Shown: piece by piece, positions 2,959 through 26,900 of the stretch | Numbering within the stretch: the stretch's first letter is position 1 | How the letters are laid out: each line of letters opens with the position of its first letter | Source: Paraspadella gotoi | Lineage: Eukaryota; Animalia; Chaetognatha | NCBI GenBank assembly: GCA_051294375.1 | Contig: JBJCIZ010000751.1 | Coordinates: 1-29,278, forward strand | DNA: 29,278 nucleotides | Direction: 5' to 3' | Notes under the pieces: generated by a model | What the model saw: only the letters and a program-made list of their open reading frames with translations | The model's database searches: none | Told to the model about the DNA's origin: nothing | Program-made: the position numbers and the translations under genes

Positions 2959-3869
2959 ATGGATTCAATGTTACTTTATTAAGTAACCACAATGAATTAG
3001 ATTACATAAATAGTCCGACTCAATTCAGAAATAGATTACAAGATCCCATTTACTTAAATAGTACGACCGAGGTCGCGCTTCGTGAGATTAGCATTGAGAG
3101 AGCCATTTTAAATATTACTGAGCCTAGTAAAATTGAAATATTTGACCATTTTTATAAGAATAGAGAAACGAATAAATTTGGATTTTTACACACTTTTAAA
3201 ATAGAGCAAGGCTATTATCAATCCGAATCAATTTTATGTAAATATTTAAATGATTTAATTATTTTGGTCGTTCCACGATTGCGGAAAGAGGGACCCAACC
3301 AGTTCAGATCATTCTTTAAATACGATTCTATAACTAATAAATTTTTTTATCGTTTTTTTGATAAAGATTACATAACTGTTATATTATATGGAGAACTGCT
3401 TAACATATTAGGACTAAAAACGAGCTCCGATTCGACGACAAAGTTTAAAACTTTTGGCCGTGACAAGGCCGCGGAGGGTTACGTCTTTAAGACTAAGGAA
3501 AATACTTTGGTGAAACGGGAATTTGAGGATAAAACGGTTTATAGTAATACTTTAAAGGGAATAGTACACTGCTCTTTCGTAAATAGACTAAATACAGATT
3601 CTACTTTGTTTATTTATTTAAACATTTGTGAGGAGACGCATTTTGGTTGCGAAAAGAGAAACTTGTTAGACGTCGTACTGCCGCGGGATAAAACGGCGGG
3701 CAGGGTTGTCATTGAGAGGAGCTGTCTTAATTACGTGAGAGTAAAACCGAGAGGGCGAGTGAGTGAAATATTTGTAGATATTAGAGACTCGCGAAACCAG
3801 CCGGTTAAAATTCGGAGCGGTTATACGAGATTACTATTGCACTTTAGAGAAAATAAATGTCTAGATTAG
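2955..3869 (+). CDS. Minor capsid protein (penton, single jelly-roll)
   Basis: FNVTLLSN...NSPTQFRNRL.DPIYL...EVALREI at the N-terminus and FIYLNI.E..FG...LL.VV...YVRV...SEIFVDIRD...LLLHFR at the C-terminus are typical of Maverick mCP; ATGA overlap with the integrase stop. Confidence 0.9.
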   Translation: MNGFNVTLLSNHNELDYINSPTQFRNRLQDPIYLNSTTEVALREISIERAILNITEPSKIEIFDHFYKNRETNKFGFLHTFKIEQGYYQSESILCKYLNDLIILVVPRLRKEGPNQFRSFFKYDSITNKFFYRFFDKDYITVILYGELLNILGLKTSSDSTTKFKTFGRDKAAEGYVFKTKENTLVKREFEDKTVYSNTLKGIVHCSFVNRLNTDSTLFIYLNICEETHFGCEKRNLLDVVLPRDKTAGRVVIERSCLNYVRVKPRGRVSEIFVDIRDSRNQPVKIRSGYTRLLLHFRENKCLD

Positions 3870-4550: not shown

Positions 4551-5930
4551 ATGTCTAACGCATTTATTTCAACCGAGTTAAACAATGATAGACTAGCTTG
4601 TTTAGATTTATTTACCGAGCCGAGCGAAGATTTTTCCATAGTACATTCTTACTATAAGGAATATGAACCTTTGGGGGGACATAGTTCAAAAAAATTACAA
4701 TTTTGCATAGAACCTTCGGAACATTTTTTAGATATTTCGGAAAACCGACTGGAATTAAAAGTACGTATTATTAATAAAGATGGGACTCCCATAGATAAAT
4801 CAAGCTATCAATGCAGTTTTATTCAAGTACCGCATAGCAGTTTATTTTCAGGCATAGATTTAAAAATTGACAATAAATCTGTAGAAAGAGATATGATTAA
4901 CAATCATCATTACGCCGCTTATCTCATTAAGCTGTTTAATTATTCGTGGGAAACGTTACACTCGAAATTAAGTTTGCAAGGTTGGGAGACGGAAACTTCG
5001 CTCGGCGGAGCTCCGGATTTTAGCGCCGCCACGGGCAGTATAGGTCTAAAATCTCGCGCGGATCTTACGCGCGAGGGTCGTATTCTGACTTTGTCGGGAC
5101 CAATAACGACTCCGTTACACTCTCAAGGTCGCTTATTACCTAGCATGGTAAAGCTTAATTACGTTTTTGAGCTTAATTCCCCAAATGTTTGTATTAAAAA
5201 AGCCGCTGGTGAAGACGATTTTAATTATGAGATTTTGTCGGCAAAATTGCTCGTCAAGAGAGTACAACTGGCAGAATCGGTTTCTCTTAGAATAGAAAAT
5301 AGATTAGCGAAAACTCCTGCAAAATATCCAATTACCTATTTCAAGTGTACCGATTACACTTTACCATCGGGTAATTTAACCTATAGCATATCTAACGTTT
5401 TTTCCTCTGAATTTTTGCCAAATTTTTCCATTTTGGGTTTGGTGACTGAAACGGAATATCTTGGAACTCAGAGATCAAGCCCATTTAATTTTCAAAGTTT
5501 TGGATTATCGGAGGCGACTTTTACCGTTGACGGATTCTCTTTTCCGGCAGAAAATTTTAATTTAAAGTTTTCCGACGATACGACCATCAATGACGATCGC
5601 ACGGTAACTATTACGGCTAGAAACCGTGACGTCAGCCGAGGTTACGCGAGTTTGTTTTCGAACGTACCGAGCATGGCGAACGTTGGTTTGCCTATAAGTC
5701 AGGAAAAATACAGATCGGGAGGATTCGCGCTCCTGTGCGTACAATTTAATTCGTACGATAGAGTGCATCTGTCGAACAGCGTTCCGGGCAAGCGAATCGG
5801 TACGGCAAAATTATCGCTTAAATTTCGAACCGCGCCCAGTTCGTCGCTTAAACTAATTCTTTTTACGGAATCTTACGAGATACTAAGAATCAACCATCTT
5901 CGACAACCAATCATTAATTATTTTTCGTGA
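4551..5930 (+). CDS. Major capsid protein (hexon, double jelly-roll)
   Basis: LDLFTEP...SI..SYYKEY.P, LQFCI, FLD.S...LELKVRI, HSSLFS.IDLKID, YAAYL..LFNYS, LHSQGRLLP, AKYPI, SPFNFQ motifs; 459 aa, intact. Confidence 0.93.
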   Translation: MSNAFISTELNNDRLACLDLFTEPSEDFSIVHSYYKEYEPLGGHSSKKLQFCIEPSEHFLDISENRLELKVRIINKDGTPIDKSSYQCSFIQVPHSSLFSGIDLKIDNKSVERDMINNHHYAAYLIKLFNYSWETLHSKLSLQGWETETSLGGAPDFSAATGSIGLKSRADLTREGRILTLSGPITTPLHSQGRLLPSMVKLNYVFELNSPNVCIKKAAGEDDFNYEILSAKLLVKRVQLAESVSLRIENRLAKTPAKYPITYFKCTDYTLPSGNLTYSISNVFSSEFLPNFSILGLVTETEYLGTQRSSPFNFQSFGLSEATFTVDGFSFPAENFNLKFSDDTTINDDRTVTITARNRDVSRGYASLFSNVPSMANVGLPISQEKYRSGGFALLCVQFNSYDRVHLSNSVPGKRIGTAKLSLKFRTAPSSSLKLILFTESYEILRINHLRQPIINYFS

Positions 5931-5933
5931 GCG

Positions 5934-6545
5934 ATGTTCGGACGAGATTTAGTCAGGGCGCTCGAAAGCGACGCCGAAACAAAATCAATTTTTGGGGGAT
6001 TGTATAGTCGCGATTCTTTACCCGAGACATTGGAGCAAAAGAAAGTTTATGTATGTAACACGGCATTTCAAAATTTAAAAATAGGTCATTGGATTCTTTT
6101 GTCAACTATGGAAGGAAAAAAATTTTCAGATTATTTTTGTTCCCTCGGAGGCGAACCATCTTCCGAGTTTTTAAAAGTTTTATCTCGCTCTACTAAAAAA
6201 TATGTTAGATATCAACCTCGCATCTTGCAGTCTTTGAGTCCGGACAGCGAAGCTTGCGGTTATTTTGTACTTTTAGCCGCTCACGCTTTGTCTCGCGATT
6301 TAACTTTGAACGAGACGCTAAAATTTTTTTTTTCCGGACCGGACACGGCTATTGGAAGGTATAAAAGGGACCGTAACGTGGAGCGATTCGTCAGTTGCAT
6401 TTTTGGACTTCCAAAGTTGAGAACAACTTGCCGATACAATTTTGAGAAAGCGAGAGAATCTGAAAATTATGGATTATGGCCCCGAGACAAAAGAAGAAAA
6501 AAGCGACGCGAAAAAGCAAAGCGGAAGCCTTTCGAGATTTCATGA
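5934..6545 (+). CDS. Adenain-like (clan CE) cysteine maturation protease
   Basis: FGGLYSRD.LP, YVCNT, GHW (His), DYFCSLG, ILQ (oxyanion Gln), ACGYFVL (Cys), RDRNVERFV. Confidence 0.93.
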   Translation: MFGRDLVRALESDAETKSIFGGLYSRDSLPETLEQKKVYVCNTAFQNLKIGHWILLSTMEGKKFSDYFCSLGGEPSSEFLKVLSRSTKKYVRYQPRILQSLSPDSEACGYFVLLAAHALSRDLTLNETLKFFFSGPDTAIGRYKRDRNVERFVSCIFGLPKLRTTCRYNFEKARESENYGLWPRDKRRKKRREKAKRKPFEIS

Positions 6546-7665: not shown

Positions 7666-10077
7666 ATGTCTTTCTCTCGATCTATTCCGTCGATGGAAGA
7701 TCAACAACGTCGCGGCCATCGTCGTCGTCGTGACGATGACGACGACGAAAACGACGACGACCGTCTGGAACTTTTTTTAAATCTCCCGAGAGACAACAAG
7801 GTCGTCTGGACTCGGGAGATCGGGGAACGACTTTACGCGGACACTTTGACCAAGGCGGGAGTGCGGGTCAGAAAAAATTTTGTGACTAAAACTAAACAAA
7901 CGCTTAAGCAATCGTCTTTATGGAGTTATAAAGAATACTTATATTTTTTAATGAGCAGCGGGGATTGTATTTCAAAAATCGCCGACAGGCTAGACGGCAT
8001 AGATTTTGAGGATAAGGTCGTAACAATTTCAGGAAAAAAGGCCATTTTTATATCGGGGTTTTATCAAGATCAACCTCAAAGATTGAGCGTGAGCGTGAGA
8101 GATTATTTTTTTGACTCTGAGGGAAAGATAAAACCCAAAAAACATAACCCGATTTATCTTTCTGTCCAAGACGTGGCGAGCATCAATCATAATGCCGTCG
8201 CCCTTGCCCGGGAACTCTTGGGCTACGCCAAGAGCGACCACGAGTGCCTGGGCATTGGCTGGTGCGATTTATGCCCAATTTTAAATGAGGGACCAGTTAT
8301 GATGACTGAAATAGATTTATATGATTTTTCTAAAGGATCGGAAGGAGGATGGGGGGAAAGAGAAATAATTCCAGACAGGGAGGCCATCGTAAAAGAATTT
8401 GGGGAAGTTTTGGACAGATTTTTTTTAAGACAAAACTTTCAAGGATTTTTAAATATTAGATTGAGAGGGAGGACACCGTTTCCATTAGACCAAGGACCGA
8501 GAAATATTCCCCCCATGAGACCCCAATTTCAAAAGAGGTTACATAAAGAGTACGACATTTACAAGAGCGCGAAGAGAATTCGAACATCTTCGCCTCCTCC
8601 CGCCGCTCCCGCCGCTCCCGCCGCTCCCGTTGCTCCCAATTCTGGAGCCGCATCCGCATCCGCTTCCACCTCCTCGCCATTCTTTTCTCCCGAGGAAACG
8701 TTTGCCAATCGTCTCTCCGCTCCCAATCGAACTCTTTTCCACCCCTTAGTCAACGTGGCCGGACCGAGCGGCTCCCGTTTCGTTCGTCGCGCCATGTGGC
8801 GCGATCTCGATCGTTCTTCGACTTCTCCTTTCCCAAAAGCGGGCCCGTCATCGCCATCCTTCTCCGACGATGAAGGAGATCGAGAAACGACTTTCCTTCA
8901 ACCGCCGCCTCCTGGGTTTTTTTTCACTCCACCCCCTCCTCCACCTTCTTCTCCTCCTCCTCTTCCTCCTTTCGTCAAGATGGACATTCTCTATCCTCCG
9001 CCATCTTTGCCATCGTCTTCGCCTCTTCCTTCTTACGTTACATCACCTCCTTACGTCCCAACAACCCCCCCGGCCCAGTCAACGAACTTTCCTCTTCCTC
9101 CTCCTCCTCCTCCTTTCTACATTCCAAAGACGGAGCCGATTACTCCCATCCAATCGCCCGGACCCTCCTCCTCATCTTCGCCGACCCTGAATTTGATCAA
9201 CTTTCCTCTTCCAACTCTCGACCCTGTAACCTCCTCTCCGACCTGGAGCTCGACGACCACGCAAAGAGCTTGCAGTCCCGCGTCGGAAATCGCTTCCGAT
9301 CGTCCTTCTTCTCCATCGACGCCGCCGGAAATGGCCGGCGACGTCGATAACGCCTCTATGGAAGTTCACTTTCCACAATCTCCTAGACCCATGGAATTTT
9401 TTTCTCCGAAGGACCCTAGAACTCATTTCAAACTACTTCCTGCTTCTCCCATATTTTCTCCCTCTCCGCCGCTTCCTCCTCTTCCTCATCCTCTTCCTTC
9501 GGAAGAAGAGGAAGAAGAAGAAGAAGAAGAAATCGACTACCAAGAATCTCAAATGTTGACCGGAAGCGACGAAGACGTCTTTGAGGAAAAAAAATCCGGG
9601 AGTTTGTCGTCGTCGTCGTCAGAATCGACGACGACGACGACGACGACGACTACGTCTTCTTCTTCCAAGGAAGAAGGCGAAATCTCCGACGACGACGACG
9701 ACGACGTGGAATCGCCTCGATCGTCTCGATGCGCTACGTCGTCTACTCGTCGACGATCCATTCTTAAAAAGGCGGGACGAGGACGCGGACCGCGTGGGGC
9801 CGCCAAGTTCTCCTCCTCCGAGGAGGAGGAGGACGAAGACGCCATTAACGGTACCGGAGGAACGAATTCTTTCGTCTCAAAGAAGAAGAAGAAGCTTCGA
9901 CGGAAAAGGGCCAGGTTTAACGACTTAAAATGCTTTAGCGACACGAGCGAGGACCCGGGTTGTTTGACCGACGTGGAGGATAATGTGGACGAACTTGCCG
10001 AAGTAGAAAGTAGAAGGGCGGTTAGGAATTTAATGAAAGAGATGAAAACTAGATGGGTTAACGACGGTTTTATTTGA
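7666..10077 (+). CDS. Large orphan accessory protein: N-terminal globular domain plus Pro/Ser-rich, acidic and basic (NLS-like) disordered region
   Basis: 803-aa intact ORF; about 300 aa of ordered sequence containing HECLGIGWCDLC, then many SP/TP sites, poly-Pro, poly-Glu/Asp and KKKKKLRRKR. Confidence 0.85.
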   Translation: MSFSRSIPSMEDQQRRGHRRRRDDDDDENDDDRLELFLNLPRDNKVVWTREIGERLYADTLTKAGVRVRKNFVTKTKQTLKQSSLWSYKEYLYFLMSSGDCISKIADRLDGIDFEDKVVTISGKKAIFISGFYQDQPQRLSVSVRDYFFDSEGKIKPKKHNPIYLSVQDVASINHNAVALARELLGYAKSDHECLGIGWCDLCPILNEGPVMMTEIDLYDFSKGSEGGWGEREIIPDREAIVKEFGEVLDRFFLRQNFQGFLNIRLRGRTPFPLDQGPRNIPPMRPQFQKRLHKEYDIYKSAKRIRTSSPPPAAPAAPAAPVAPNSGAASASASTSSPFFSPEETFANRLSAPNRTLFHPLVNVAGPSGSRFVRRAMWRDLDRSSTSPFPKAGPSSPSFSDDEGDRETTFLQPPPPGFFFTPPPPPPSSPPPLPPFVKMDILYPPPSLPSSSPLPSYVTSPPYVPTTPPAQSTNFPLPPPPPPFYIPKTEPITPIQSPGPSSSSSPTLNLINFPLPTLDPVTSSPTWSSTTTQRACSPASEIASDRPSSPSTPPEMAGDVDNASMEVHFPQSPRPMEFFSPKDPRTHFKLLPASPIFSPSPPLPPLPHPLPSEEEEEEEEEEIDYQESQMLTGSDEDVFEEKKSGSLSSSSSESTTTTTTTTTSSSSKEEGEISDDDDDDVESPRSSRCATSSTRRRSILKKAGRGRGPRGAAKFSSSEEEEDEDAINGTGGTNSFVSKKKKKLRRKRARFNDLKCFSDTSEDPGCLTDVEDNVDELAEVESRRAVRNLMKEMKTRWVNDGFI

Positions 10078-10151: not shown

Positions 10152-10440
10152 AGTACAAAATTGTGTAATTGATTTCTTACTTTGTTTTTAGCGTGTCTTA
10201 TTTTTATTATTAATTAATTTAGTTTGCAATTTTGTATTTTTGTATTCCATTACGTTATAATTAGTACAAAATTGTGTAATTGACCTCGTACTTTTGTTTT
10301 GTTTTCCTTAGCGTGTCTTATTTTTTTATTATTAATTAATTTAGTTTGCAATTTTGTATTTTTTGTATTCCGTTACGTCATAGTACAAAATTGTGTAATT
10401 GACCTAGTACTTTGTTTTTTATTATTAATTAATTTAGTTG
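10152..10440. repeat. About 3 imperfect tandem copies of a 110-120-bp AT-rich unit
   Basis: AGTACAAAATTGTGTAATTGA...TTATTAATTAATTTAGTT recurs at about 10152, 10263 and 10382. Confidence 0.85.
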
Positions 10441-10685
10441 GCAATAAAAATTGTAAATTGTATCGTAAATTAACCTTTTGGATCGTTATTGATTGTAATA
10501 AGTTAATAAATTCTAATGTATATATAAAAAAAAAAAAGCTTTTTAATTTATCCAGACGATTAGAAAATTAGGAAAAAAATTAAAAACAAAGTTAGACGTT
10601 AGCGAAGTTTGTATTCGAAAGTTTACGACCAAAAAAGTTTAAAAAAAAAAAAATTTATAAATTTAACACCGAGCGATACATCGAA

Positions 10686-10900
10686 TGGTACACCGAATGG
10701 TACACCGAGTGGTACACCGAGTGGTACACCGAGCGGCGGCGGCACTCCCGGGCGGCGGTTCCGGGGGGGTTCCGGCGGCGGTTCCGGGCGGCGCGGCGGT
10801 TCCGGGCGGTTCCGGGCGGCGGCGGCGGCGGCACCCCGGGCGGTTCGGGCGGTTCCGGGCGGCGGCACCCCGCGCGGCGGCGGCGGCGTTTAGGCGGCGT
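10686..10900. repeat. GC-rich island: 12-bp TGGTACACCGAR x4, then GGCGGCGGTTCCGG-type repeats
   Basis: Direct reading; embedded in very AT-rich DNA between the convergent 803-aa and pPolB genes. Confidence 0.85.
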
Positions 10901-11169
10901 TAATAATATTTTTAAATTTTTTTTTTTAAATTTTCTTTTTTTTTTAATAAAAAAAAAAAAGAAAAAATAAAAAGAAAAACTAACTGATTAAGTAAATAAG
11001 TAAGTAAAAACTGACTATGAAAACTCGCGGCCAAATAATAAAAAAAATTACAAAGTTATGAAAAAATTATTATTATTATTATTACCGTAAACCAACTAAA
11101 TACAACAATTAGTTAACAATAATTATTTAAAACGATAATTACAATTGCTGGTGATGTAGATCGAGTAGA

Positions 11170-14100
11170 TCAAGTAAGAGCTTGTAATTTGGACAAGGTT
11201 TCGCGACATAGGACAAAATCCCAATTTTTTTCCATCGTCGTCGTCGTTGTCAATTCCGATTCTTTTTTCTCTCGGATAACCCTTTCTTCTCGCGCCACTT
11301 TCGCCTCGTGGGCGCGCTTTAACAATTTCTCGTATTCCGGTATGCGAAAATAATTAAATGGTACGGATTGTACGTGATTTATATTATAAGTTTTATCCGA
11401 AACGCCCTTTAAAGCGGTCCTGCTTTTTTGGACCAAGTAAGTCACGTGTTTAACGTTTAAAAATTGATGATAATAAACAACTAACGATTTGTTATTTAAT
11501 ATACTATTAGCAAACGCGTCAGCCCCAAATTTCTTTTTTTGTAATTTTTTGGCGATCCCTTTGGCCGCTACTTTGAAGCCTTTCTCGTTCGTGACTGGAT
11601 CGTACGTGACCACGTGATAGTTTTTCGGGAACACCGCCAATACGGCGTGAATGATTCCGACGATTTCGGGTTTGATCAAACCGAGTCGATTTTTATTAAC
11701 GGTCCGCAATTCCAAAAGTTTTTTCAGCGTATCCGGGTCATTTTGTTGAGTATAGAAAGGATGGTCAAGATGGTAGGGGCTGGCGTCTAAAATCCCATCC
11801 AAGGCCAACTTGGCGTAAGTTTTCCAGAAATTGTGATCGGGATGCTTCCGAACGTCGATTCTCAACTTTGCCAAGAGCGAATCGGTATCGGACAGTAGTA
11901 GTTTCGTATGCCATCCGTCTATGGCAAAGACCTTCGTCAAGTGACAATAGTATATTCGCAAGAGATGTAATTTGCTGTAAATAAAAAAAAATAATTAAAA
12001 ATAAACGAACCGTAAGGAGAGAGAGAGAAAGAGAGAGAATTGTCGGTACCACCGCCGCCCATGACTCTCCCCCCCCCCACCCCACCCCCCATGACTTCCG
12101 ACCACGATCTCACCTTAATTCTAGAATAGTAAATCCGCTATAGATGGCTCGATCGAGATAGCAAGCGGTCGCGTGCCGAGTCAAGACGTACGAGTCGCTA
12201 ACGATCATAGAATCTTGAAAGGAAGATTTTGAAATGTACTTGAGCACTTTTTTCTTGTTTAAACATACTTTAATATCATTTCTTAACGCTTTGTTCTCGA
12301 TCATTTTCCCGTATAGCGAATTGAGACTTAATTTTTTCACGAATCTCTCGGTCGGATTATCGCTCGCCGCTCGCTGATTCGCTATCGTTTGCACGTAATC
12401 TCTCATATAATAGCTTTGTTTGAATAATATCGCCTTATGCAATGCCGTGACTACTATGCCCAATTCTAAACAACAAAACTTCAAAAGCTGAGAATGAATT
12501 AAATAAAATTTCCTAGGATGAAAATCGGCGACTAATTTTTTACTAGTTCCTCTCGTCAAATGAAATCTCTCTATTTTTTCTTTGTCATAATAGGAAAGCT
12601 CTTCCGTCTTAATCTCTTTTTGATACGGAAGAGGAACAAAGTTTTTCAACTTTTTTTGAACCTCGATTGGAAAAAAAGCGTCAATTTCAAAAAAATAGCC
12701 AATGTCTCCGTCCAAATCAATATCCGACCAGCAATTTTCCAATACAATTTTTCTCAAGGATCCCAATTCCGTATCGTCGGCAAACCGTATGTCACAAAGG
12801 GGTAATTTATGACACATTGCCGTAGGATAAAGACTAGAAAGGAAAAAGAAAATACTATTAAAAAAAAAAAAAAAAAAAAAAGTTTAAATGGAATCGTTTT
12901 CAATTTTTCTCACCTCGTCACGTCTTCGAATATAATTCTGTCGTGTCTATGCTGCGGTAAAATGTCGGGTTCGTCCAAATCCTTTACGCGCAAACTTTCT
13001 TCTTCTTCCTCCTCCGCTTTGGCGCAGTCGGTCTCGTTTATGGCCTCTTCTTCCCTTCTCGTTGGCGACAAAGATGGGAGCGACGGATCGTCCGAAAAAC
13101 CCCACCTCTCCCCCACGATCGTAAAGCCTCCCCGTAGATTGGCCATAATCAATAGAACCATATCGGGATCGGAAACTTTTTCAAGTTTTACATTAGACTT
13201 TTTTAAAAACGCCTGATAAGAAAAAGACGCCAAACTAATGAATTGGACCGGATCGAGTCCGTTGTCCTCGTAAGCGATATGTCTGTATCTCGTTAGCAAA
13301 TCCGCGAGCAAGAGAGTGTCCCCGATAAGGTACGCCCGGCTGAAGCATTTTAAGGTTTTACATTTTAAATCGTACCAAACCCTCAAACCTCGCAACCATT
13401 CTTCCTCCGTAACGCTCTCTCCTTCTCGGAGCGAACTCTTAAACTTATCGATCGTTGGAAAAGAGCAAACTTCCAAATCTTTCACGCTTCGTATTTCCTC
13501 GTGAGGGAAAATTCCTTTTTTGAGAAAATGATGAAAGTTTGATTTTCCATACCATTCGCGCACGATCTTAAAAGTGTGGGGAAACGCGAGTTCTGGTTTT
13601 CTCTTTTTGGCGCACCGTTCGCACGGTTTGCCAATGTCTCGAGCCGCCTGACAGCTTTCGCAGTCAAAATCGTATACCTCGTCCCTGAGGTGTCCGACGA
13701 GTTGATCGAGCGAGCCCGGGAGATGCCTCAGGGAATCAATCAGGGTAATACTTCTGTATTGGTTACACTTTAAACAGGATTTGAATTTCTTTTTCTTTAT
13801 CGATTTGTCTTTTTTTCTTTCTACTAATTCGCCCTTTACAACCTTAAAATCTTTTTCTAGTTCCCGTATCAAGTTCTCATTGACCATTCTAAAATTATTA
13901 ATCATTTCTTTTTCGCAATTATCCTCCCATTGCTTGGCAAATTTTGACCCGTCGTCATCGTCATTCTCTCCTTCTTTCCACCAAGGTTCGCTCATTCCCT
14001 CGTCGTCGTCGTTGTCATCGTCGTCGTCGTCATCATCTTCATCTTCGAGAGAACCAACGGTCGACTCGGTCGAAACGAATGAGGAATGACCGTCAACTGA

Positions 14101-16473
14101 CGCCGACCCGATTATTCTTCTCTTAGTTTTTTCTCTCTCTTTCTTTCTTTTTCTTTTTTGACAACCACTCTCCGACTTTACGACTTCATCCCGCATTTTT
14201 CTCTCTTTTTCTTCTTCCTCTTTCTTAAGCTGATTCAAGGTCGTAGTTTCGCAATCGGGACAGGAAAAATTTAAAGTGATTGAAAGAATTTTTTCAAAAG
14301 AATTGGCGATGAATCTCACGTTTCTGACAATTTCTGGGTGTGAACTCAGGGCTACGCTGATAGAGTTTTGAAAGTCGAAACTTGATGAATTATGCGAAAT
14401 TAAAATTAAACTACGTTGAATGCGAAGTTTAAGATTGCAAGAGTTGCACAAAGTAGAAATAAAATTTGATTCGCCATTGGTATTTTTCCTATGGTGATGA
14501 TGCCGAGTCTTCAGAAGTTCGACCATGCCCGATTCCGTCGGTTTAGCAAATTCTTTATGACAACTGTCGCAATTCTTAGCTTTTAAATGGCGTCGCATCT
14601 GCTCCGGAGTTAACTTAATTTTATCATTTTCCAGTAATTTCTTATGTAACATTTTTGAATCGTCTCTGAGACTTCTTAAAAAATGGGAAGCCACATCGTC
14701 TTCGTCATCTTTTGCATAATACATTCTCAGAGGGAAAAAATCAATTCCGTAAGAGTCAATAATATAATAACAATAAGCATAAATTTTTTGAGACGATAAA
14801 AATTCCGTTCGCAATTTTAATTTCTGACAAGGTCTCTCGTTCGTACAGACCGAACAACCTTTCAACAAATGTTCGTTCTCCTTCAAAGTCGCGGCCCATT
14901 CGTAAACGCGATTTTCTGGAGGAACCCACGCCGCGGCGTCGGGATTTTCGGACGCGCCTTTACGAGACACGCCTCTACTCTCAATGTCAAAAACGATGAC
15001 GTAATCAGCCATATATTCTGGGGTACGATTTTTATACTCTAAAAACGGGTCCAGTTTTTTGTCTGGAAAAATCATGCGTTTGATAGGAAATTTGGAGCAA
15101 AGTTCGCGATGATTCGCCAAACTTTTTTCGCTTAAGCAGGAATAAAGACATTTGTAACAAAAGTAAGTTTTACCTTTATGTTTAGAATTTGAACTTCCAA
15201 GCAATCTCGACATTGATTTCACGTAATATAATGATTCTTAATTTTTTGCTCTACCAATAATAAATTTATAACATTTCTGGGTTTGTTATTGGACTGGACC
15301 TCAGGGGAAAAAATTTAGGTTTTGTTTTAAGTTTTTAGTTTCAAACCCTAATACATTAATGGCTATTTTTTTATCCTCGTTGTTTTTTTCAAATCTTAAA
15401 ATGTCATAATTGCAATTCACGGGGAATCGTATTTGAGTCCAGTTTAATTTGTGCTGATATTGTTTTAAAACGTTCATTGATGTTAAATCTAAATCCTTTC
15501 TCCGATACTCTTCCATTTGAGATAAATAACCGTAAAGCACGGCAAATTTAAAGCAACTATCCAGATCTTCTTTATTTTTAGAAAAACATTTAATATTACA
15601 ACAAGCTTTCTTATTAGCTATACAAGGTGGAGTTTTGTAATTATACGTGATGCCACTTCCGGTCAATGGACGATATTTATGTATATTTAGCCGAAAATAG
15701 TTGACTTTTTTAAATTTTAAACCTGATTTGTAAGATACAAAAATATCTATATCTGAAATTATATCGCTTAATATGGTGTTCAAAATACTATCTAAAACAT
15801 CTGGAGAATCCTGCAACGAAATAACCTGAGCGTCCATCTTCGTTTCCAATTGAATATCTTCCAAGATAGTCTCTTCTTTATCTAACGGTTTTGTAAATGA
15901 TATATTCGCTCTCACTACAAATTTTAAAACGCTATGCTCTTTGACACTCTTTAGAATTAATCGTTTTAAAGCGGGCATGACTAAAAAAATTTCTCTATTG
16001 TAATCATCCTCGCGCAAATCGTTTATCGGTCGAGTTCTCTCCAACCTGTAAGATGATATAATCGTACCAAAAGCTTTCTGAAAGGAATTCACGTCATAAA
16101 TTTCTTTTAAATCATCGTCATTTTCCAGATTGACGGGTTTGTACAGGGGGTCATTTTTGGTAAAAATAGGTAATAGTACCAGATTTTTTTTCTTACTTCC
16201 CGCTGGCGCTTGCCCGTTTGAAATCTTGCTATCGTTCATTTTATGTTCGTCGTCGTTGTCTCTGGCTAAACTCCTATCATCTTTCATATTTTCGATCAAC
16301 TTTGGTCTCCCTTCACCAATCCCGAGATTCACAGATTTTTCTCCTCCTCTTCCGCTTCCTTCTCCCACTCGATTAAAAGCTTTTTGTCCTCCGCCATCAT
16401 TTTCACTCATTAACCCTTCTCTTCCACGCCCAAAAGTATCTTTTTCCATTCGAAAGAACAATGAGTCATCCAC
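11170..16473 (-). CDS. Protein-primed family B DNA polymerase (pPolB), spliced: exons 16473-12914, 12833-12114, 11974-11170; frameshift cluster at about 15225-15303
   Basis: ExoI VIVFDIES, ExoII SHNSSSFD, ExoIII YLIGDTLLLAD, LRGG, motif A EDVTS|LYP (restored by splicing), motif B KKLSLNSLYGKMIEN, GFTILELS|KLH (restored by splicing), motif C SDTDS; C2H2 finger CYKC..H..LC and an EndoVII-like CDSC...RHHHH...CNSCN. About 1,690 aa. Confidence 0.95.
11975..12113 (-). other. Spliceosomal intron (139 nt) in pPolB between motifs B and C
   Basis: Donor AG|GTGAGA, acceptor TTTTTTTATTTACAG|; joining gives GFTILELSKLHLLRIYYCHL. Confidence 0.95.
12834..12913 (-). other. Spliceosomal intron (80 nt) in pPolB motif A
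   Basis: Donor AG|GTGAGA, acceptor TTCTTTTTCCTTTCTAG|; joining gives FEDVTSLYPTAMCHKLP. Confidence 0.95.
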
Positions 16474-16652
16474 GTTTCGATCACGACTCGCTCCTCTCGC
16501 TTCTTCGTCTTGGGGAAAAAAAATTCAAAGCAAAATAATGACAAATTTTTACTTTCGTTTTATTTTTTAATTTAATTTTGAATTTTGAAAATATTTTATA
16601 CTAATTTAATGTAATTTTTCTTTAAAAAGATTAAAAATTGATATTCCAAGAC

Positions 16653-16769
16653 GCCGGTCTTGCGCCGCTTCGGGTCTCGCGCCGCTTCGGGTCTCGCGCC
16701 GCTTCGGGTCTTACGCCGCTTCGAGTCTTACGCCGCTTTGGGTCTCGCGCCGCTTCGAGTCTTACGCCG
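16653..16769. repeat. 17-bp tandem repeat CGCCGCTTCGGGTCTCG, about 6-7 copies
   Basis: Direct reading; lies between the divergent pPolB and membrane gene A. Confidence 0.9.
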
Positions 16770-16913
16770 TGGTTTTCCAGATCCTTTGACCCTCTCGTCA
16801 CTTCGTTAGTCGGTTAGTTTTTTTGTTTGTTTTTTTTTCCTTTGGTAGTTTAAACGTTTACCATTTAATATTATTTTATATATTGTACCAATTTCATATT
16901 ATTAGCGAGGTCA

Positions 16914-17866
16914 ATGCAACACTTCGCAACGATGACCTCGCTCACGACGAAGAAGGACGCCTACGAAGATTGGGTCCGGCGGTTCGACGCCTGCATCGAT
17001 CGGGAAACGCGTCTCGGTGTACCGAAAGGTATTTTCTTTTTTATAAATTTTATTTTTTTTTATTCGTTCTAATATTTTTTTTTCCTAATAAAAAAATTTA
17101 CAGATTTCGGGTTCAGGTACTGTCAGCGGCGTGTCCCAAGACCCACGGGACCCGCGACCACGAAACCCGCGACCACGAGACCCACGACCACGAGACCCGC
17201 GACCACATCATCATCTCCGAGAGAGAGACCGGCGCCAGTACCAAAGTCATCCTCGCTTCCGCGTCCCTCGAAATTCGCGACGAATACAACGCGCCTTCCC
17301 GCTACTCGAGTTCCACGCGGCGCACTTACGAACGAAGAAATTGAAATGTAAGCTTTTATCTCGCGTATCTCTTCCACGAATATTATTATTATTATTATTA
17401 AAAAAAAAAAAATTTTTTATTCAGAATCTCCGGTTTTAGCGGTACGCTTCTCTTCGTCGCCATCCTGCTAATCGCGATTCTCAAGATTCTAAGACGGTAA
17501 GCGAAGCAATGTTTTTTAAAAAAAAAAAAATCTTAAAAAAATAATTTAAAGATTAAAAATTTTTGAAGATTGGGATTTCGATGCGCGATCCGACGATCCG
17601 AGCGGCGAGGGACGCCGCATCGACGTCTCGTCGATGCGAATGAAGAAGACGACGACGCGCTGGTCGAAAGACTCGGCGCTCTGATTCCACCGCCTCCAGG
17701 AAACGAACCGCTTCGCGCGAACAATGATTTCAGACGCGGTCGCGGTCGCGGTGTCACGCCATACTCGGAGCGTCGCGTCGGTTCCACCGCTTTCAACAAC
17801 GACGCGTACGAAAATGTGACTCTCACCGTCCCGTCGAACGCCGACGAACAAACTACCGTCTTTTAA
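16914..17866 (+). CDS. Spliced single-pass membrane protein A (exons 16914-17028, 17104-17347, 17425-17496, 17569-17866; about 242 aa)
   Basis: Three 72-77-nt AT-rich GT-AG introns give one open frame: ...FDACIDRETRLGVPK|DFGFRYCQRRVP, a Pro/Thr stalk (PATTKPATTRP), TM IISGFSGTLLFVAILLIAILKIL, and a tail with PPPP, YENV and C-terminal TVF. No clear signal peptide, so the 5' end may be incomplete. Confidence 0.8.
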
Positions 17867-18028
17867 AAAAAAATCCTTTCATTTTTTAGTTTTTGATAAA
17901 AAATATAATCGTAAGGGGTTGAAAGGTTTTGTGTATGTTTCGTCTCGTTGTTCCATTTGTTTTTTTTTGTTTTAGGTTAACTTAGGATTAGAAATACATT
18001 CAAAGGGGTTTACTATTAAGTTTAAAGC

Positions 18029-18195
18029 TGATACTAGTCTGCAATATGCAAATGAGATTATTCCTTATTACCTCGTTAATACTAACGAAAGTTTAGTATT
18101 TCTTTTAAACTATTTAAAATTGATACTAGTCTGCAATATGCAAATAAGATTATTCCTCATTACCTCATTAATACGAAAGTTTAGTATTTCTTTTA
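18029..18195. repeat. About 92-bp tandem duplication, each copy containing the octamer ATGCAAAT
   Basis: TGATACTAGTCTGCAATATGCAAAT.AGATTATTCCT.ATTACCTC at 18029 and 18121. Confidence 0.85.
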
Positions 18196-18546
18196 GTCTA
18201 TTTTTTTAAAAACTCTTTACCCTAATGGCATTTAATCTTTAGTATTAAAAAAAATGATTGTCGTTTTGTTAAAAAAAAAAATTATGATTTTTAGTTTGAA
18301 TTCTCGTCGTTACTACATTAACAATCTTTTTAGTATTATAATCATTTTATACAAAAACAACGTACCATTCACGTTACAAAATTGTTACCAAAATTTTTCA
18401 TGATTTTTTGATTCGTGTTTTTTATTGAAAAAATAAAAAGTGGACAAAAAAAATTAAAGTTTACCCAAATGTTTATTCTTCTCGTCCTCTTCCCATGGCC
18501 GCCAGAAAGCCATTTTTGTTAATAAGTCAGTAACTCGGTAACCGCG

Positions 18547-18696
18547 TTGCGCAATCAGTCAAATAGCTTGAAAGAAGGTTAAATAGACGGGTTCCTTAGT
18601 GAGTCATTCCTGGAAAAGAAAAACGATGGCGCCGTTAGTCTGACCTCGTTCTTTTTTCACAAGTTAAAACAGATATGCAAATTTTTTTTTTATAAA
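18547..18696 (+). promoter_or_regulatory. Promoter of membrane protein B: C/EBP, AP-1, STAT/GAS, octamer, TATA
   Basis: TTGCGCAAT 18547-18555, TGAGTCA 18600-18606 abutting TTCCTGGAA 18607-18615, ATGCAAAT 18675-18682, TATAAA 18691-18696. Confidence 0.55.
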
Positions 18697-18880
18697 CGGC
18701 GTCCATTCATTTCTTTGTTCTACGGAATTCGCGCTTCCTCTTCCTCTCTTATCTTTCCCCATAAATAACCCTAGACATTTAGTTTTATTCCAACCCCTCG
18801 TTCGGTCTCTTAAAACTTTTTTTCGCTCCTTTACTTTCTAATCCTAAAGTTTACTGATAAAGAACTAAAGAAAAAAAAAG

Positions 18881-20542
18881 ATGACCAAAATAAAATTCAT
18901 TTTATTAATCACTCTCTTCGGTTGCGTTCGCGCCACGACGTACGATCAATGTATGGCCCGTATGCGCTCTCGAATGCCAACTATACAAGCTCAATATTAC
19001 TGCTCCCGTTTTCCCAAGATGACAACGTCAACTACAACCACCAAACCAATCGCGCCCGTCTCAACTACGGCGGTCACCAATTCGCCAATCGTCTTAATCA
19101 CGGCTTCGCCAAATAATTTTTTAGCGACGTGCATTCGGAGGATAGCGTACTCTAGACCCTTAGGTTAATATTTAATTAATAATAAAAATTTTAAGGTATA
19201 ATTTTTTTTTAAACCGAGTTATTATTTTTTTTAAGATTACGCGCAAAGGATTTGTCGGATGCTCGAAAGTCGGATAAGTGAGGAAAGAACGACGCTTTCA
19301 AGCACTTTGACGATCCCAACGACGATAGCGCCGCCAACAACGACAAACTCTACGAAAGTTACGACAGCGACGCCCACGACGCCGCTGACGACAACAATAT
19401 CATCGCCAGGATCAACAAAGGGCGCAGTAGCGCCAGTAGCGTCGACAACTTTGGCGACAGCGACGCTCACGACGCCGCTGACGACAACAATATCGTCGCG
19501 AGGATCAACAAAGAGCACAGTAGCGCCAGTAGCGTCGACAACTTTGGCGCCGGCGACGCTTACGGCGCCGTTGACGTCACAAAAAATATTTTATACTCAA
19601 AATTGTACTATTACTACTCCCGCGAAAAATCAGGTCGTTCAAAACGGCACAATTAGATTTTTTCGTGGAACAAACGACGAAACGGCTAATGCGGAATCTG
19701 GATCGTTCATTTTCGCATTAACGATCTTGGCTCTCGTATTCATTTTCGCATTAACGATCTTGGCTCTCGTATTTTTTACCATAATACCCCTCGGCATAGT
19801 TTTTGTAAAGTTTTTACGTAAGAAAAAAAGAAGAAGGNNNNNNNNNNNNNNNNNNNNNNNNNNNNNNNNNNNNNNNNNNNNNNNNNNNNNNNNNNNNNNN
19901 NNNNNNNNNNNNNNNNNNNNNNNNNNNNNNNNNNNNNNNNNNNNNNNNNNNNNNNNNNNNNNNNNNNNNNNNNNNNNNNNNNNNNNNNNNNNNNNNNNNN
20001 NNNNNNNNNNNNNNNNNNNNNNNNNNNNNNNNNNNNNNNNNNNNNNNNNNNNNNNNNNNNNNNNNNNNNNNNNNNNNNNNNNNNNNNNNNNNNNTTTCAC
20101 CATAAACCCTCGGCATAGTTTTTGTAAAGTTTTTACGTAAGAAAAAAAGAAGAAGGCAAAGACAAAGACATCAACCGTCGCCACTTCGGTAGTTCCCATT
20201 AATAATTATTGGGGACATTTTCGGATGGAACCTCTTCCTCTGGCGGTTGTAGAACAACCGGTTCCGATCTCTTTCTTTTTTTTTCAAAGACAAAGACATC
20301 AACCGTCGCCACTTCCGGTAGTTCCCATTAATAATTATTGGGGACATTTTCGGATGGAACCTCTTCCTCTGGCGGTTGTAGAACAACCGAGTCCGTCGCA
20401 TTCTCACTATAATCTCCCACCGCCCCCTTCTATTCCAAACGATTCGCCTTCTGGCTCTCGTTTATCTTGGGATCCGACTTACGACATGGGAGATAATTTC
20501 GAAGATTCGTACGAGCATCCTTACGATACTCCCAGAGTTTAA
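18881..20542 (+). CDS. Spliced type I mucin-like membrane protein B (exon 18881-19163, intron 19164-19235, exon 19236-20542 crossing an N-gap)
   Basis: Signal peptide MTKIKFILLITLFGCVRA; two two-Cys motifs; Thr-rich stalk with N-glycosylation sequons (NST, NCT, NGT); TM with a 33-bp duplication; stop-transfer RKKKRRR; tail ending SYEHPYDTPRV. The splice RPL|DYAQRICRMLES joins the two ORF-track ORFs in frame. Confidence 0.82.
19838..20094. other. Assembly gap (N run); flanks overlap each other
   Basis: About 60 bp after the gap nearly duplicates the sequence immediately before it. Confidence 0.9.
20157..20390. repeat. About 129-bp tandem duplication in the cytoplasmic tail of protein B
   Basis: CAAAGACAAAGACATCAACCGTCG...GTAGAACAACCG at 20157 and 20285; the first copy lacks one C. 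Confidence 0.85.
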
Positions 20543-20768
20543 ATAAAATTACCTAAACATACTAATAAATTTTTATTCACCTTGTTTAATCGTTTTTTAT
20601 TTGTCTTCCCAGTTGATTAAACAATTCTGTTTGAGTTGTTAAAAAAATACTTATTAAATAATATTACCTAATTACTAATAAATTTTTATTCACCTCGTAT
20701 AATCGTTTTTATTTAATCCAAAGTATTTTATTTGTCCTCTCGGTTGATTAAGCAGTTTTTGAGTTGTT
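20541..20768. terminator. Duplicated bidirectional polyadenylation region between convergent genes
   Basis: AATAAA and TTTATT back to back (ACTAATAAATTTTTATT) in two copies of a unit of about 100 bp (about 20548 and 20663). Confidence 0.55.
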
Positions 20769-20937
20769 AGCAGCAGCAACAAAATTTTCTCCAGTTGAAA
20801 GAAGCTTTCAGTTGAATAACGATATAATTTTCGCAACTATCGCATTTTAATTCCGGTTTGCACAATTTACATTTGTGACGAGTGATTTTTATTTTTCTTC
20901 TCTCGCGAGATTCGCAAACTTTTTTTTCAAGCTCCAT
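20767..20937 (-). CDS. Small Cys-rich protein (56 aa; CxxC-x5-CxxC and C-terminal CCCC)
   Basis: MELEKKVCES...HKCKLCKPELKCDSCEN...WRKFCCCC; GCCATGG Kozak context, TATAAA at 20979-20974, AP-1 array upstream, polyA signals downstream. Confidence 0.6.
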   Translation of the reverse strand: MELEKKVCESRERRKIKITRHKCKLCKPELKCDSCENYIVIQLKASFNWRKFCCCC

Positions 20938-21008
20938 GGCTCCGTATGAGTACCCGTTTCTCGTCAAGATCCATTTATACTCCCGCAGTCCTCCATAGAT
21001 TGACCGAA

Positions 21009-21041
21009 TGAGTCACGAAAATGAGTCACGAAAATGAATCA
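21009..21041. promoter_or_regulatory. AP-1 array: TGAGTCA x2 plus TGAATCA at a 13-bp period
   Basis: Direct reading; about 30 nt upstream of the minus-strand TATA at 20974-20979. Confidence 0.6.
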
Positions 21042-21417
21042 TCCGTTACGCATTGTAAGTTTCCCTCCCACCGATGATCGTCCCGCTGAGATCGTCCCGC
21101 TCAACTTCGTCCCGCTGAAGAGATTTCTGACCGCGCCATCGCCGGGGAACGGAGTCGGCGCCCGGCCGCCACCCGCAGATTTGCCGGCATCGACGCGCGC
21201 CAGCAGAGGCGGAAGTGCCGGAGACGTTGAGTTCGATGGCGCCGATGAGCCGAAGCGGAGACGTCTCCGGCGAATGCCCGTTGGAGGGAAAGCGAGGGAT
21301 GCGCCGACGGTTGAGAGAGACGAGAAGACGACGCAGAGAGAGAAGAAGGCAGAGAGAGAGAGAGCAGAGAGAGAGAGAAGAGACGAGGAGCAGAGAGAGA
21401 CGTCACGCATTCCATGA
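21034..21417 (+). CDS. Hypothetical protein with NLS-like PKRRR and charged C-terminus
   Basis: GC-rich ORF in AT-rich surroundings; all frames are fairly open, so the frame and strand are uncertain. Confidence 0.3.
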   Translation: MNHPLRIVSFPPTDDRPAEIVPLNFVPLKRFLTAPSPGNGVGARPPPADLPASTRASRGGSAGDVEFDGADEPKRRRLRRMPVGGKARDAPTVERDEKTTQREKKAERERAERERRDEEQRETSRIP

Positions 21418-23949: not shown

Positions 23950-26900
23950 TCCCGTGGAGGTGAAGAGTACGTCGGCACTAGATGCGTCGGCACAGTTGCA
24001 TCGTCAGTTGCGTCGGTAATAGCATCGACAGCAATTGCGTCTTACAGTTGCCTCGTCCATTGCCATTGAAAATCACGAGGGTTATGACATCAGAGGTATG
24101 TTGGCAGTTTGCATTGACACAAATTTGTAATTGGATACAGATACGCAATTAACGGCAATTACTTCAGTAATTTTTTTTTTTTTTCTGAAAAGAAAACAGA
24201 GCAAACAAATAATTGCAGAATGGTTGCAAAATAACTTATGTCAACAATAACACGAGAACAAATGAGGGGAAGATAAAATGAAAAAGAAGAAGAGATCGGG
24301 AGATCAAGTCAAGCAACTCCGTCCACCAATAAGACGGCAATCAATCACGGGAACTTCGGGAAGCGAGGCAGGCTGCCCGTTTCGCGCTGAAGGCATGACA
24401 GAAAGTCTCTCAAAAAAAGTGCTTAGACGTTTTGCCGATATCTAAAGCCCTGCATTCGTTGCTTGGAGTTTGGCGAAATTTTTAAGTTTGAGAAGCATCC
24501 AGGTCCGCATGCCCCGAAGGTAGTAAACAGCCAGAGGGAATGAAGCCAACGTCCGCCGTGCAGTTTGCCTTCGTACTTAGCATGTTTGGCCTGGCGAGCT
24601 GTGTTTGTGTCGGCATAGTTGCGTTGGCAGCAGTTGCGCCTTGTAATAGCAAACGAATGATTGCATTGGCCTTTATCCAACAATTGTATAGCATCCAATT
24701 GGCCTAGTGCTTTTGCGTTCTGCATTCGCATGGGCACAGTTGCAATCACGCAGTTGTCTGTAGAATACAAACTAATATGGAAACATATATTCACATAAAA
24801 GTCGAGACCTGAAGATTGGATAGACTCAGAAGGGACGGCTCTCGGGAAGAGGAGGATTAAGATCGTGGTTGGCTTCAACTGTCATTTTTGTGGGCGGTTA
24901 CATTTGTAATAGTGTCGGAGCTAATTGGCAGTATTTGAGTCACAGTTTACATCGAACAATTTGCGAACAAAACAGTTTACGACAACACAGTTGCGTCGGC
25001 ATTGTCCCGCATTTGCGTTTGGCAAATCTAACTCCGGCATTTATTCGGCATACGCGTCGGACATCGATTGCCGCTTCGGCTTCCAACTTTATTTCCCCTT
25101 TGTTTCTAGTTTCCATCTTTTTTTTTTTTGTCAGTTTTCAATGAATAAATTTCGGTTTAACGAATCCGGTTTTAAGGCCAGGGATCACTCAACCTAAAAT
25201 TGTGAAATCTCAAATTTACTGTATCTTAATCATTTTCTGCAGCATCCCGAAAGAGGATTTCTATAAAAAATAATCAAAAACTTGTGAAAAATCTACCCAA
25301 AATGTTCATAAAAATTTTAACAAAATTTTTCTTCGTAAAACTAGATTTTCAAGAGAAAAATATTTTTTAAAATGTAAAGCTAATTTCTACAACCCAAATT
25401 GTTAACTTAAAACTTGTTTTTTTACAGTAAGCTTCAATTTAACTTCTATATTTAATTCTTTTTTGGTGCAAGTACGTACTTGGAGCTGTATCGACTAATA
25501 AGGTTAAAAAAATTAAAATAACTACTCTACACAGATTTTTCCAGAAGGGTTTTTATGCTTTTATGAGTTTTATGAGTTAAAAAAACTTATCGAATTTATT
25601 TCAAATTTGACTTTTTAGTATACTGAAATGTTTATATCATAAAGAGTTGCCGCTATTTTCTCGGAATCTCTGAAAAAAAAATCAAATCAAATTAAAAATC
25701 AGTAAGGCCATTTTTCTTAAGATTTCGGAGTTGTAACTAAATCCCATCATCACATCCATTGCTTGTATATGTTTTGGTGAATCTTGCAAGAGTAATGAGT
25801 AAGAATTGAACTTTCTTGACGAAGAGAAGTTAAAAACGAAGAGTTGCAGCTTCAAACCGTTGGACTCTTCTTGAAGAAAAAAATATGTTGGCAAGAAAGG
25901 AAAGGTGGGGGAGATTCTATGAGCGCGTTTTGGAAAAACGTTTTTCGTTTCAAAATATATCAAGGATTATCCCAAAATGATTAAAATAATCAGATTTCTA
26001 TGAAGGAATGCAATTTTGAAATATCTTTTCATAGAATTGAGTCGCTGACCTAAAGGTAATTCATGCCAAATTTCAATGAGAAACCGCTTTACCGTTTGGG
26101 CTGCAACTCTTCAAATAGGTTCTTTATTTATATAGTACAAAAAAAATCAAAAAAACGACTACGCTTTTGAAAAAATAGTAAAGTGAATACATTTTCGGAA
26201 TCGTTCAGGAGCTTTCCTTTCCGAAATCCGAGCTGCGGTTTTAGACCTAATTATAATTTGAATTGAGTGATCCGGACCTTAACGCAGGTTCATGAATATT
26301 TTAAGATAACGATTAGGTTTAGAGAGAATTTTGATCGTTTTCACCGGCCTTCGGAGTCCAAACGAAATAAAAGAGATAGATTTAGTAAGTTAACTGAAAT
26401 GATACAAACAAACAAACAAACAAGGTATTTTCGTCTTTACCATGTTGAGACAACTTTTTCCTTTTTTCCCCCCAACAGCAGAGACAACTCGTGGATTCTT
26501 GGTGCGTGGAAAAAGACATGAGGTTTTACGCTAAATACTTGGGTAAGTGTTTTTTTAACTTATATATCGCACATCCTTCGATTAGAAATGTTTTATTAAG
26601 TTTTTCCTTTCTTTAAGGATACATCTCTTCATTCAAGTTTGGCTTACTGATGGCCATCGACAATTTCTGGCTGAAATGGTCAAGTCTGTAAGTACGCAAT
26701 ACGCATGACTTCTGTCTTATATACCCTTTGTATCATTTCAAACTTTTCGTCCTACAATTTTTCTTCATTCGCTTCCTTTGCTTCCTTCCACAATTTAACC
26801 TCTCGATTCCCTTCTTTCCTTCTGATCTTTTTTCACCTCTCCTTTGCCCTCTTTCTTTCCATCCTCTCTCTCTCTCCCAATTCCTCTCTTTCCTCTCCCT

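What the first reader, a model, noticed from the sequence alone, without database searches (positions are those of the whole stretch)
16914..20542. Hidden pair of spliced, paralogous mucin-stalk membrane proteins carried by the Polinton
Seen: manual splicing gives two single-pass proteins that the ORF track misses. Gene A has 4 exons; gene B has at least 2 exons and a signal peptide. Each has a short two-Cys ectodomain motif, a Thr/Pro stalk, a TM helix and a Tyr/Pro-rich tail. Known: core Mavericks are modelled as non-enveloped capsid elements with no standard surface glycoprotein genes. Inference: this is a virus-encoded cell-surface effector module (immune decoy/shielding, superinfection exclusion or cell-to-cell spread).
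Basis: partly seen in the sequence, partly recalled or inferred. Interest (0 to 1): 0.85.

Follow-up and report, generated by a model that had tools for sequence, protein, structure and literature searches.

The report
Polinton's spliced cell-surface gene pair
Beside the DNA polymerase gene of a virus-like jumping element in an animal genome lie two intron-containing, likely duplicated genes predicted to make small sugar-coated cell-surface proteins with signalling-type tails; they likely belong to the element and would change how its host cell sticks to, or is recognised by, other cells.

Summary
Observation largely confirmed. All four proposed introns are 72-77-nt, AT-rich GT..AG segments; removing them gives a 242-aa single-pass protein (A) and a signal-peptide protein (B) open up to an assembly gap. 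One public run (RNA status guessed) has a contig that skips B's intron exactly; for A no spliced contig was seen and one contig keeps intron 1. Paralogy rests mainly on a shared intron (phase 1, in the Asp of P-x-D, six residues before the second Cys), since sequence similarity is marginal (p 0.045-0.07). B has two such Cys heads. Corrections: A has no signal peptide and only 2 tail tyrosines; B's tail lies behind a gap with duplicated flanks. Location inside the element is likely (about 0.75) but unproven: no genome, no inverted repeat could be mapped; support is composition, shared TGAGTCA promoter sites, a third small gene beyond B, and two introns in the element's own polymerase. No homologue was found anywhere. 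Best reading: an adenovirus-E3-like accessory pair acting at the host cell surface; function untested. Spliced cargo and a membrane glycoprotein are already known in nematode Mavericks, so this is a new variant, not a new kind.

The parts
16914..17028 (+). Gene A exon 1 (ATG; first helix and first Cys of the head; no signal peptide)
   Evidence: single-sequence model gives one helix, aa 2-33, mean pLDDT 81.6
17029..17103 (+). Gene A intron 1, 75 nt, phase 1, inside the Asp codon of P-K-D; holds an in-frame stop
   Evidence: kept unspliced in one X1 contig
17104..17347 (+). Gene A exon 2 (second Cys; Thr/Pro stalk with a 15-nt repeat at 17143-17206)
17348..17424 (+). Gene A intron 2, 77 nt, GTAAG..TTCAG
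   Evidence: predicted; no read support
17425..17496 (+). Gene A exon 3 (TM helix)
   Evidence: 1 of 3 frames open
17497..17568 (+). Gene A intron 3, 72 nt, GTAAG..TGAAG
   Evidence: predicted; no read support
17569..17866 (+). Gene A exon 4 (cytosolic tail: PPPP, YENV, C-terminal TTVF, stop)
   Evidence: X1 contig over 17583-17824
18600..18606 (+). TGAGTCA (AP-1-type) site upstream of gene B, followed by TATAAA at 18691
   Evidence: the AP-1 label is recalled
18881..19163 (+). Gene B exon 1 (predicted signal peptide aa 1-18, head 1 C24-C41, Thr linker, first half of head 2)
   Evidence: helix-turn-helix model, pLDDT 76-79 over the first 30 modelled residues
19164..19235 (+). Gene B intron, 72 nt, phase 1, inside the Asp codon of P-L-D
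   Evidence: skipped exactly by a 516-nt X1 contig, GT..AG
19236..19837 (+). Gene B exon 2 up to the gap (end of head 2, long Thr stalk with a 93-nt repeat, three N-glycosylation sequons, TM helix, basic stop-transfer)
   Evidence: the 33-nt doubled TM unit (19706-19773) is single in two X1 contigs
19838..20094 (.). Assembly gap (257 N) with duplicated sequence on both sides
20095..20542 (+). Probable 3' part of gene B: Pro/Tyr-rich frame (LPPPP, YDMG, YEHP, YDTP) ending in a stop at 20540-20542 that overlaps AATAAA; 129-nt unit doubled at 20157-20389
   Evidence: link to exon 2 not readable in this assembly
20767..20937 (-). Small Cys-rich ORF C (56 aa, CxxC..CxxC, ends CCCC), convergent with B, with TATA at 20974-20979 and TGAGTCA at 21009 and 21022
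   Evidence: no Pfam hit
11170..16449 (-). Protein-primed DNA polymerase B of the element, divergent from gene A; two introns (12913-12834, 12113-11975) and frame breaks near 15.2-15.3 kb
   Evidence: PF03175 E 1.1e-6
16656..16769 (.). 17-nt tandem repeat (6.7 copies) in the 465-nt spacer between the polymerase and gene A start codons
1..6545 (+). Polinton core module: packaging-ATPase fragment, integrase (1642-2958), minor capsid (2955-3869), major capsid (4551-5930), protease (5934-6545)
   Evidence: rve E 7.8e-8; 38 capsid homologues at 22-29%; tblastn to related loci

Best explanation
Genes A and B are two intron-containing, likely paralogous genes that likely form the accessory end of an animal Polinton and are predicted to encode small O-glycosylated single-pass proteins displayed on the host cell surface, where they would act as receptor mimics that alter adhesion or immune-cell recognition. 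Shown: gene structure, B splicing in one dataset, shared intron position, TM and stalk composition. Inferred: host RNA polymerase II transcribes them from TATA promoters with TGAGTCA (AP-1-type, stress/immune-responsive) sites; B enters the secretory pathway by a signal peptide and A by its TM helix alone (N-terminus out); a disulfide-stapled helical hairpin of about 25 aa (one in A, two in B) is held away from the membrane by a mucin stalk and binds a host or self ligand; the tails (PPPP, acidic Tyr motifs such as YENV and YDTP, hydrophobic C-terminus) would recruit SH2/SH3-type adaptors, sorting or PDZ proteins. They are non-structural, like adenovirus E3 glycoproteins, not capsid parts.
For: Splice model and frames; exact intron skip for B. 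Shared intron phase and position relative to Cys2 (about 1 in 51 if placed at random in a 17-codon loop), Cys spacing 16-17 with a central Pro, D-x-Y-E and PPPP in both tails, 4 of 7 tail Tyr followed by D/E (shuffle p 0.005; motifs chosen after looking). Inside the element: A starts 465 nt from the polymerase ATG; CpG o/e 1.4-2.2 per kb over 16-21 kb, like 1.1-2.35 over 1-16 kb, against 1.0-1.2 over 22-27 kb; held-out Markov score element-like in 6 of 9 bins of 16.5-21 kb (3 near zero) and negative in 9 of 13 bins beyond 22.5 kb; 5 of 6 TGA[GC]TCA sites lie in 1-21.45 kb, each just upstream of a gene, one of them before the internal ORF 7666; the element's own polymerase has two introns that split conserved motifs which are unbroken in 6 of 6 relatives examined, so introns do not mark A and B as host genes; a second, diverged B-like contig in X1 (6 differences in the TM stretch) fits a multi-copy element; no host-type orthologue found. 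Precedent: terminal cargo with introns, accessory regions, E3/49K.
Against: No terminal inverted repeat or target-site duplication could be mapped (no (ACT)n, and only microsatellite-type (CT)n runs from 21.8 kb on). Composition is confounded by coding against non-coding DNA, and CpG o/e rises again to 1.55-1.57 at 27-29 kb. TGAGTCA enrichment is borderline (5 against 2.0 expected, p 0.066). Head similarity alone is marginal (p 0.045, 0.065, 0.068) and TM and tail alignments are not significant (p 0.25, 0.28). A: no signal peptide, no spliced contig, intron 1 kept in one low-depth contig. 0 of 81 related Polinton loci hold A or B relatives and 0 of 16 loci of 9 kb or more show a mucin-TM ORF, though these are only 23-29% identical in capsid and often lack their ends. 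This copy has frame breaks in polymerase and ATPase. No functional evidence at all.
Confidence: 0.45

Rival explanations
1. Passive shield: the genes are on the element, but the glycosylated stalks simply mask the cell surface (anti-adhesion), as described for the effect of bracovirus Glc1.8; heads and tail motifs matter little.
For: [quoted passage not shown]
Against: The Cys head was kept and duplicated with its intron, and both tails keep similar Tyr and Pro motifs; A's stalk is only about 60 aa.
Confidence: 0.15
2. Ordinary host genes: the Polinton ends just upstream of its polymerase (the 17-nt repeat region being its end) and A and B are a tandem pair of fast-evolving host orphan genes.
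For: Intron sizes match a 75-nt GT..AG candidate in the flank (26543-26617); no terminal repeat shown; no Polinton relative carries them; B is spliced in X1 while no polymerase joint was seen.
Against: No (ACT)n/(CT)n-type end was noticed in the 465-nt spacer; composition, shared promoter motif and tight gene packing continue to about 21 kb; polymerase introns are of the same style; no homologue in 1.84 billion representatives.
Confidence: 0.2
3. Superinfection exclusion or spread factor: head binds the element's own particle or its receptor and the tail drives actin, in the way vaccinia A33/A36 repel incoming virions and A36 recruits Nck and Grb2.
For: Two partner-like membrane proteins; YENV fits the recalled Grb2 YxN rule and YDTP a recalled Nck/Crk YDxP rule; A36 mechanism in PMC9333988 (passages), PMC10883800 and PMC3709573 (abstract starts).
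Against: No virion is known for this element; such motifs are common in host receptor tails; no similarity to A36 was found.
Confidence: 0.12
4. Captured cargo on the way out: a host gene picked up and duplicated by the element; B is still transcribed, A has lost its signal-peptide exon and is decaying; no benefit to the element.
For: A lacks a signal peptide although an acceptor-like site lies at 16905 behind a 93-nt AT-rich stretch with no usable upstream ATG; intron 1 kept in X1; frame breaks in core genes.
Against: A's 729-nt frame and three junction pairs are intact although A and B have diverged beyond significant alignment, which implies long selection on both.
Confidence: 0.08

Closest known systems
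Cargo/accessory regions of Mavericks (nematode wasp and krma cargo, 10.1101/2022.07.12.499685; vertebrate accessory regions, PMC8097293)
   Same: A 2-5 kb terminal block of poorly conserved, GC-rich, intron-containing genes beside the core module.
   Different: Cargo here is a duplicated pair of orphan mucin-stalk membrane proteins, lies beside the polymerase rather than the integrase, and the polymerase itself has introns, whereas core genes are described as intronless.
Adenovirus E3 CR1 glycoproteins (E3/49K, CR1-beta/gamma; PMC13437282)
   Same: Non-enveloped relative of Polintons with paralogous type I glycoproteins, repeated head domains separated by a disordered linker, Tyr-based tail motifs; CR1-beta and -gamma interact.
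   Different: CR1 domains are Ig-like; here the head is about 25 aa and predicted helical, no Pfam hit, mainly O-glycan-type stalks, longer tails; A has no signal peptide. Works like, not a member.
MFUS-1 fusogen of nematode Mavericks
   Same: Maverick-encoded protein with signal peptide and single TM.
   Different: 866 aa, glycoprotein-B-like and intronless; A and B are 240-370 aa, mostly disordered, with no room for a fusogen fold.
Adintovirus membrane-active proteins (PLA2X, GasderminX, Cupiennin; PMC8502044)
   Same: Membrane-related accessory genes of animal Polintons.
   Different: Those sit in the virion module and are short intronless ORFs; A and B lie outside it. ORF 580-915 resembles 107-aa ORFs of related loci by eye and may be the cupiennin-like gene (inference).
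Bracovirus Glc1.8 and vaccinia A36 (functional analogues)
   Same: Virus-encoded surface proteins that change adhesion/phagocytosis or recruit Nck and Grb2 through tail tyrosines.
   Different: No sequence relationship detected; different virus groups; function here untested.

Membership tests
Polinton/Maverick (the element) | Protein-primed family B DNA polymerase | tested here: met
   PF03175 E 1.1e-6; polymerase pieces hit 3, 15 and 7 of 81 related loci, best E 1e-28
Polinton/Maverick (the element) | Retroviral-like integrase | tested here: met
   PF00665 E 7.8e-8, above cut-off; 46 of 81 loci
Polinton/Maverick (the element) | Major and minor capsid, protease, packaging ATPase | tested here: met
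   Major capsid: 38 homologues, several named F54H12.2-like; minor capsid 6, protease 17, ATPase fragment 1 of 81 loci; gene names inferred from position and recalled motifs
Polinton/Maverick (the element) | Terminal inverted repeats with AG/AGT end motifs and 6-bp target-site duplication | not testable with these tools
   Left end is outside the window, no genome held; no clear right end motif in 20.5-23 kb
Polinton/Maverick (the element) | Intronless core genes (as described for vertebrate and nematode elements) | tested here: not met
   Two GT..AG introns split D-V-T-S-L-Y-P and I-L-E-L-S-K; spliced junction peptides align without gaps to 6 of 6 relatives
Maverick cargo/accessory region | Lies between core module and terminal repeat | tested here: inconclusive
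   Indirect support only; no terminal repeat mapped
Maverick cargo/accessory region | GC-rich, intron-containing, poorly conserved genes | tested here: met
   Exon flanks 44-64% GC, 4 introns; 0 of 81 related loci hit
Adenovirus E3 CR1 glycoproteins | Ig-like CR1 domain | tested here: not met
   No Pfam family on B exon 1 or the A exons scanned separately; head is about 25 aa and modelled as two helices
Type I membrane mucin-like glycoprotein | Signal peptide, Thr/Ser/Pro stalk, one TM, cytosolic tail (gene B) | tested here: met
   Hydropathy and composition only; SignalP/DeepTMHMM not available; tail provisional
Type I membrane mucin-like glycoprotein | Signal peptide (gene A) | tested here: not met
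   KD9 max 0.74 in the first 30 aa; upstream ATGs give no hydrophobic leader; charge asymmetry points to N-out, type III topology
Class III fusogen (MFUS-1) | Large glycoprotein-B-like ectodomain | tested here: not met
   Ectodomains about 120 aa (A) and 230 aa (B), mostly Thr/Pro stalk
A36-like phosphotyrosine adaptor platforms | Phosphorylated tail tyrosines bind Nck and Grb2 and drive actin | not testable with these tools
   Motifs present; binding needs experiment

The most novel reading that the evidence does not exclude
A spliceosome-dependent animal Polinton lineage has evolved its own E3-like unit: a pair of receptor mimics built on an undescribed disulfide-stapled helical-hairpin head, switched on by AP-1 during stress or immune activation, that work together at the cell surface and recruit Nck/Grb2-type adaptors to repel immune cells or superinfecting particles or to promote cell-to-cell spread. 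That would be functional evidence that integrated Polintons live as viruses under host immune pressure.
Probability: 0.2. Interest if true: 0.78.

Novelty: new variant of a known kind. Interest (0 to 1): 0.5.

Why it matters
No virion or infection cycle is established for animal Polintons in the papers read (PMC8097293 abstract). Genes that only make sense at the surface of a somatic host cell, and that are transcribed and spliced, would be an independent sign of a virus-like life and give a testable handle (expression trigger, binding partner). Practically, ORF-based annotation misses both these genes and the intron-split polymerase, so such elements are likely scored as degraded or cargo-free. 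The small Cys-hairpin head has no detectable relative and may be a new binding module.

Tried and rejected
No whole genome is held, so copies and ends could not be mapped. Run search: 1 holder, no RNA holder on record. Reads were laid only on 11000-19837; the second laying, meant for B's tail, the gap and the right flank, returned nothing, so these are untested by reads; contig depth cannot rank genes and was not used for that. Uncovered parts (A introns 2 and 3, polymerase introns) prove nothing. Homologue searches, all blank: B aa 1-49 against 1.84 billion representatives, 0 at E 0.001; A tail and B exon 1 against longer proteins, 0 of 408 and 0 of 36 candidates at E 10 (weak tests; near-length proteins not searched); viral contigs with capsid, B exon 1, A tail, polymerase piece: 0 of 7, 38, 8, 2 pattern hits; prokaryote genomes 0 of 387; Pfam nothing above cut-off for A, B or C. 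The spliced proteins could only be searched exon by exon, so A's head was never searched whole in the large databases. Protein atlas gave no answer. Fold searches with the low-confidence B model (mean pLDDT 60.8): no match at E 0.001 in viral or PDB libraries, best Z 2.7; uninformative. A PDB sequence search with a polymerase piece gave nothing significant. An upstream signal-peptide exon for A was sought within 400 nt introns: two candidates with poor donors and no hydrophobic leader, rejected. Five Thr-rich frames of related loci were read and rejected as A/B-like genes (5 of 18). Look-ups of earlier scan notes by place and by sequence were empty.
Full report
Setting. The window begins inside a Polinton/Maverick. 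On the + strand lie an ATPase fragment, an rve integrase (1642-2958; PF00665 E 7.8e-8), a minor capsid gene, a major capsid gene (4551-5930; 38 homologues at 22-29% identity, several named F54H12.2-like in thrips and a ribbon worm), a protease and a long Pro/Ser-rich ORF (7666-10077). The polymerase runs on the - strand from 16449 to 11170 (PF03175 E 1.1e-6). The host is an unidentified animal; no genome is held. The copy has frame breaks in the ATPase and near 15.2-15.3 kb of the polymerase, which may be decay or assembly error.

Noticed in passing
window 12913-12834 and 12113-11975 (- strand): Two GT..AG introns in the Polinton DNA polymerase, each inside a conserved motif; relatives examined are single open frames. 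The second intron is unusually GC-rich (49%) with a G-run and a microsatellite.
   Followed up: yes
window 20937-20767 (- strand): 56-aa Cys-rich ORF (CKLC..CDSC, ends CCCC) with TATA box and two TGAGTCA sites; convergent with gene B; no Pfam or locus hit.
   Followed up: partly
window 7227, 16462, 18600, 21009, 21022: TGAGTCA sites upstream of ORF 7666, in the polymerase/gene A spacer, before gene B and before ORF C: a possible shared stress-responsive promoter element.
   Followed up: partly
window 21066-21120 and the last 70 nt of the window: A 54-nt inverted match built of CGTCCC units (score 66 against shuffle maximum 30). It could be the ends of a second, 8.2-kb transposon that interrupts the Polinton, or two copies of a small repeat.
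   Followed up: partly
window 16656-16769: 17-nt GC-rich tandem repeat (6.7 copies) in the divergent promoter region between polymerase and gene A.
   Followed up: no
window 10666-10886: 12-nt and GC-rich 10-43-nt tandem repeats between the convergent ends of ORF 7666 and the polymerase.
   Followed up: no
window 7666-10077: 803-aa ORF with a globular-looking N-terminal third and a long Pro/Ser/acidic low-complexity part ending in basic clusters; no Pfam or locus hit.
   Followed up: no
window 10188-10418, 18021-18203, about 20546-20740: Tandem-duplicated AT-rich blocks just downstream of three element genes; the 18021 unit carries ATGCAAAT, which recurs with similar context at 28772.
   Followed up: no
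window 19770-19802 (X1 contig): A second, diverged B-like TM-coding sequence in run X1, pointing to another copy or paralogue of gene B.
   Followed up: partly
window 26479-26690: Short exon-like pieces separated by a 75-nt GT..AG candidate in the flank; gene unidentified.
   Followed up: no
L001, L004, L018, L070, L077, L079: In the long related loci the polymerase lies upstream of and on the same strand as integrase and capsid; in the window it is downstream and opposite.
   Followed up: partly
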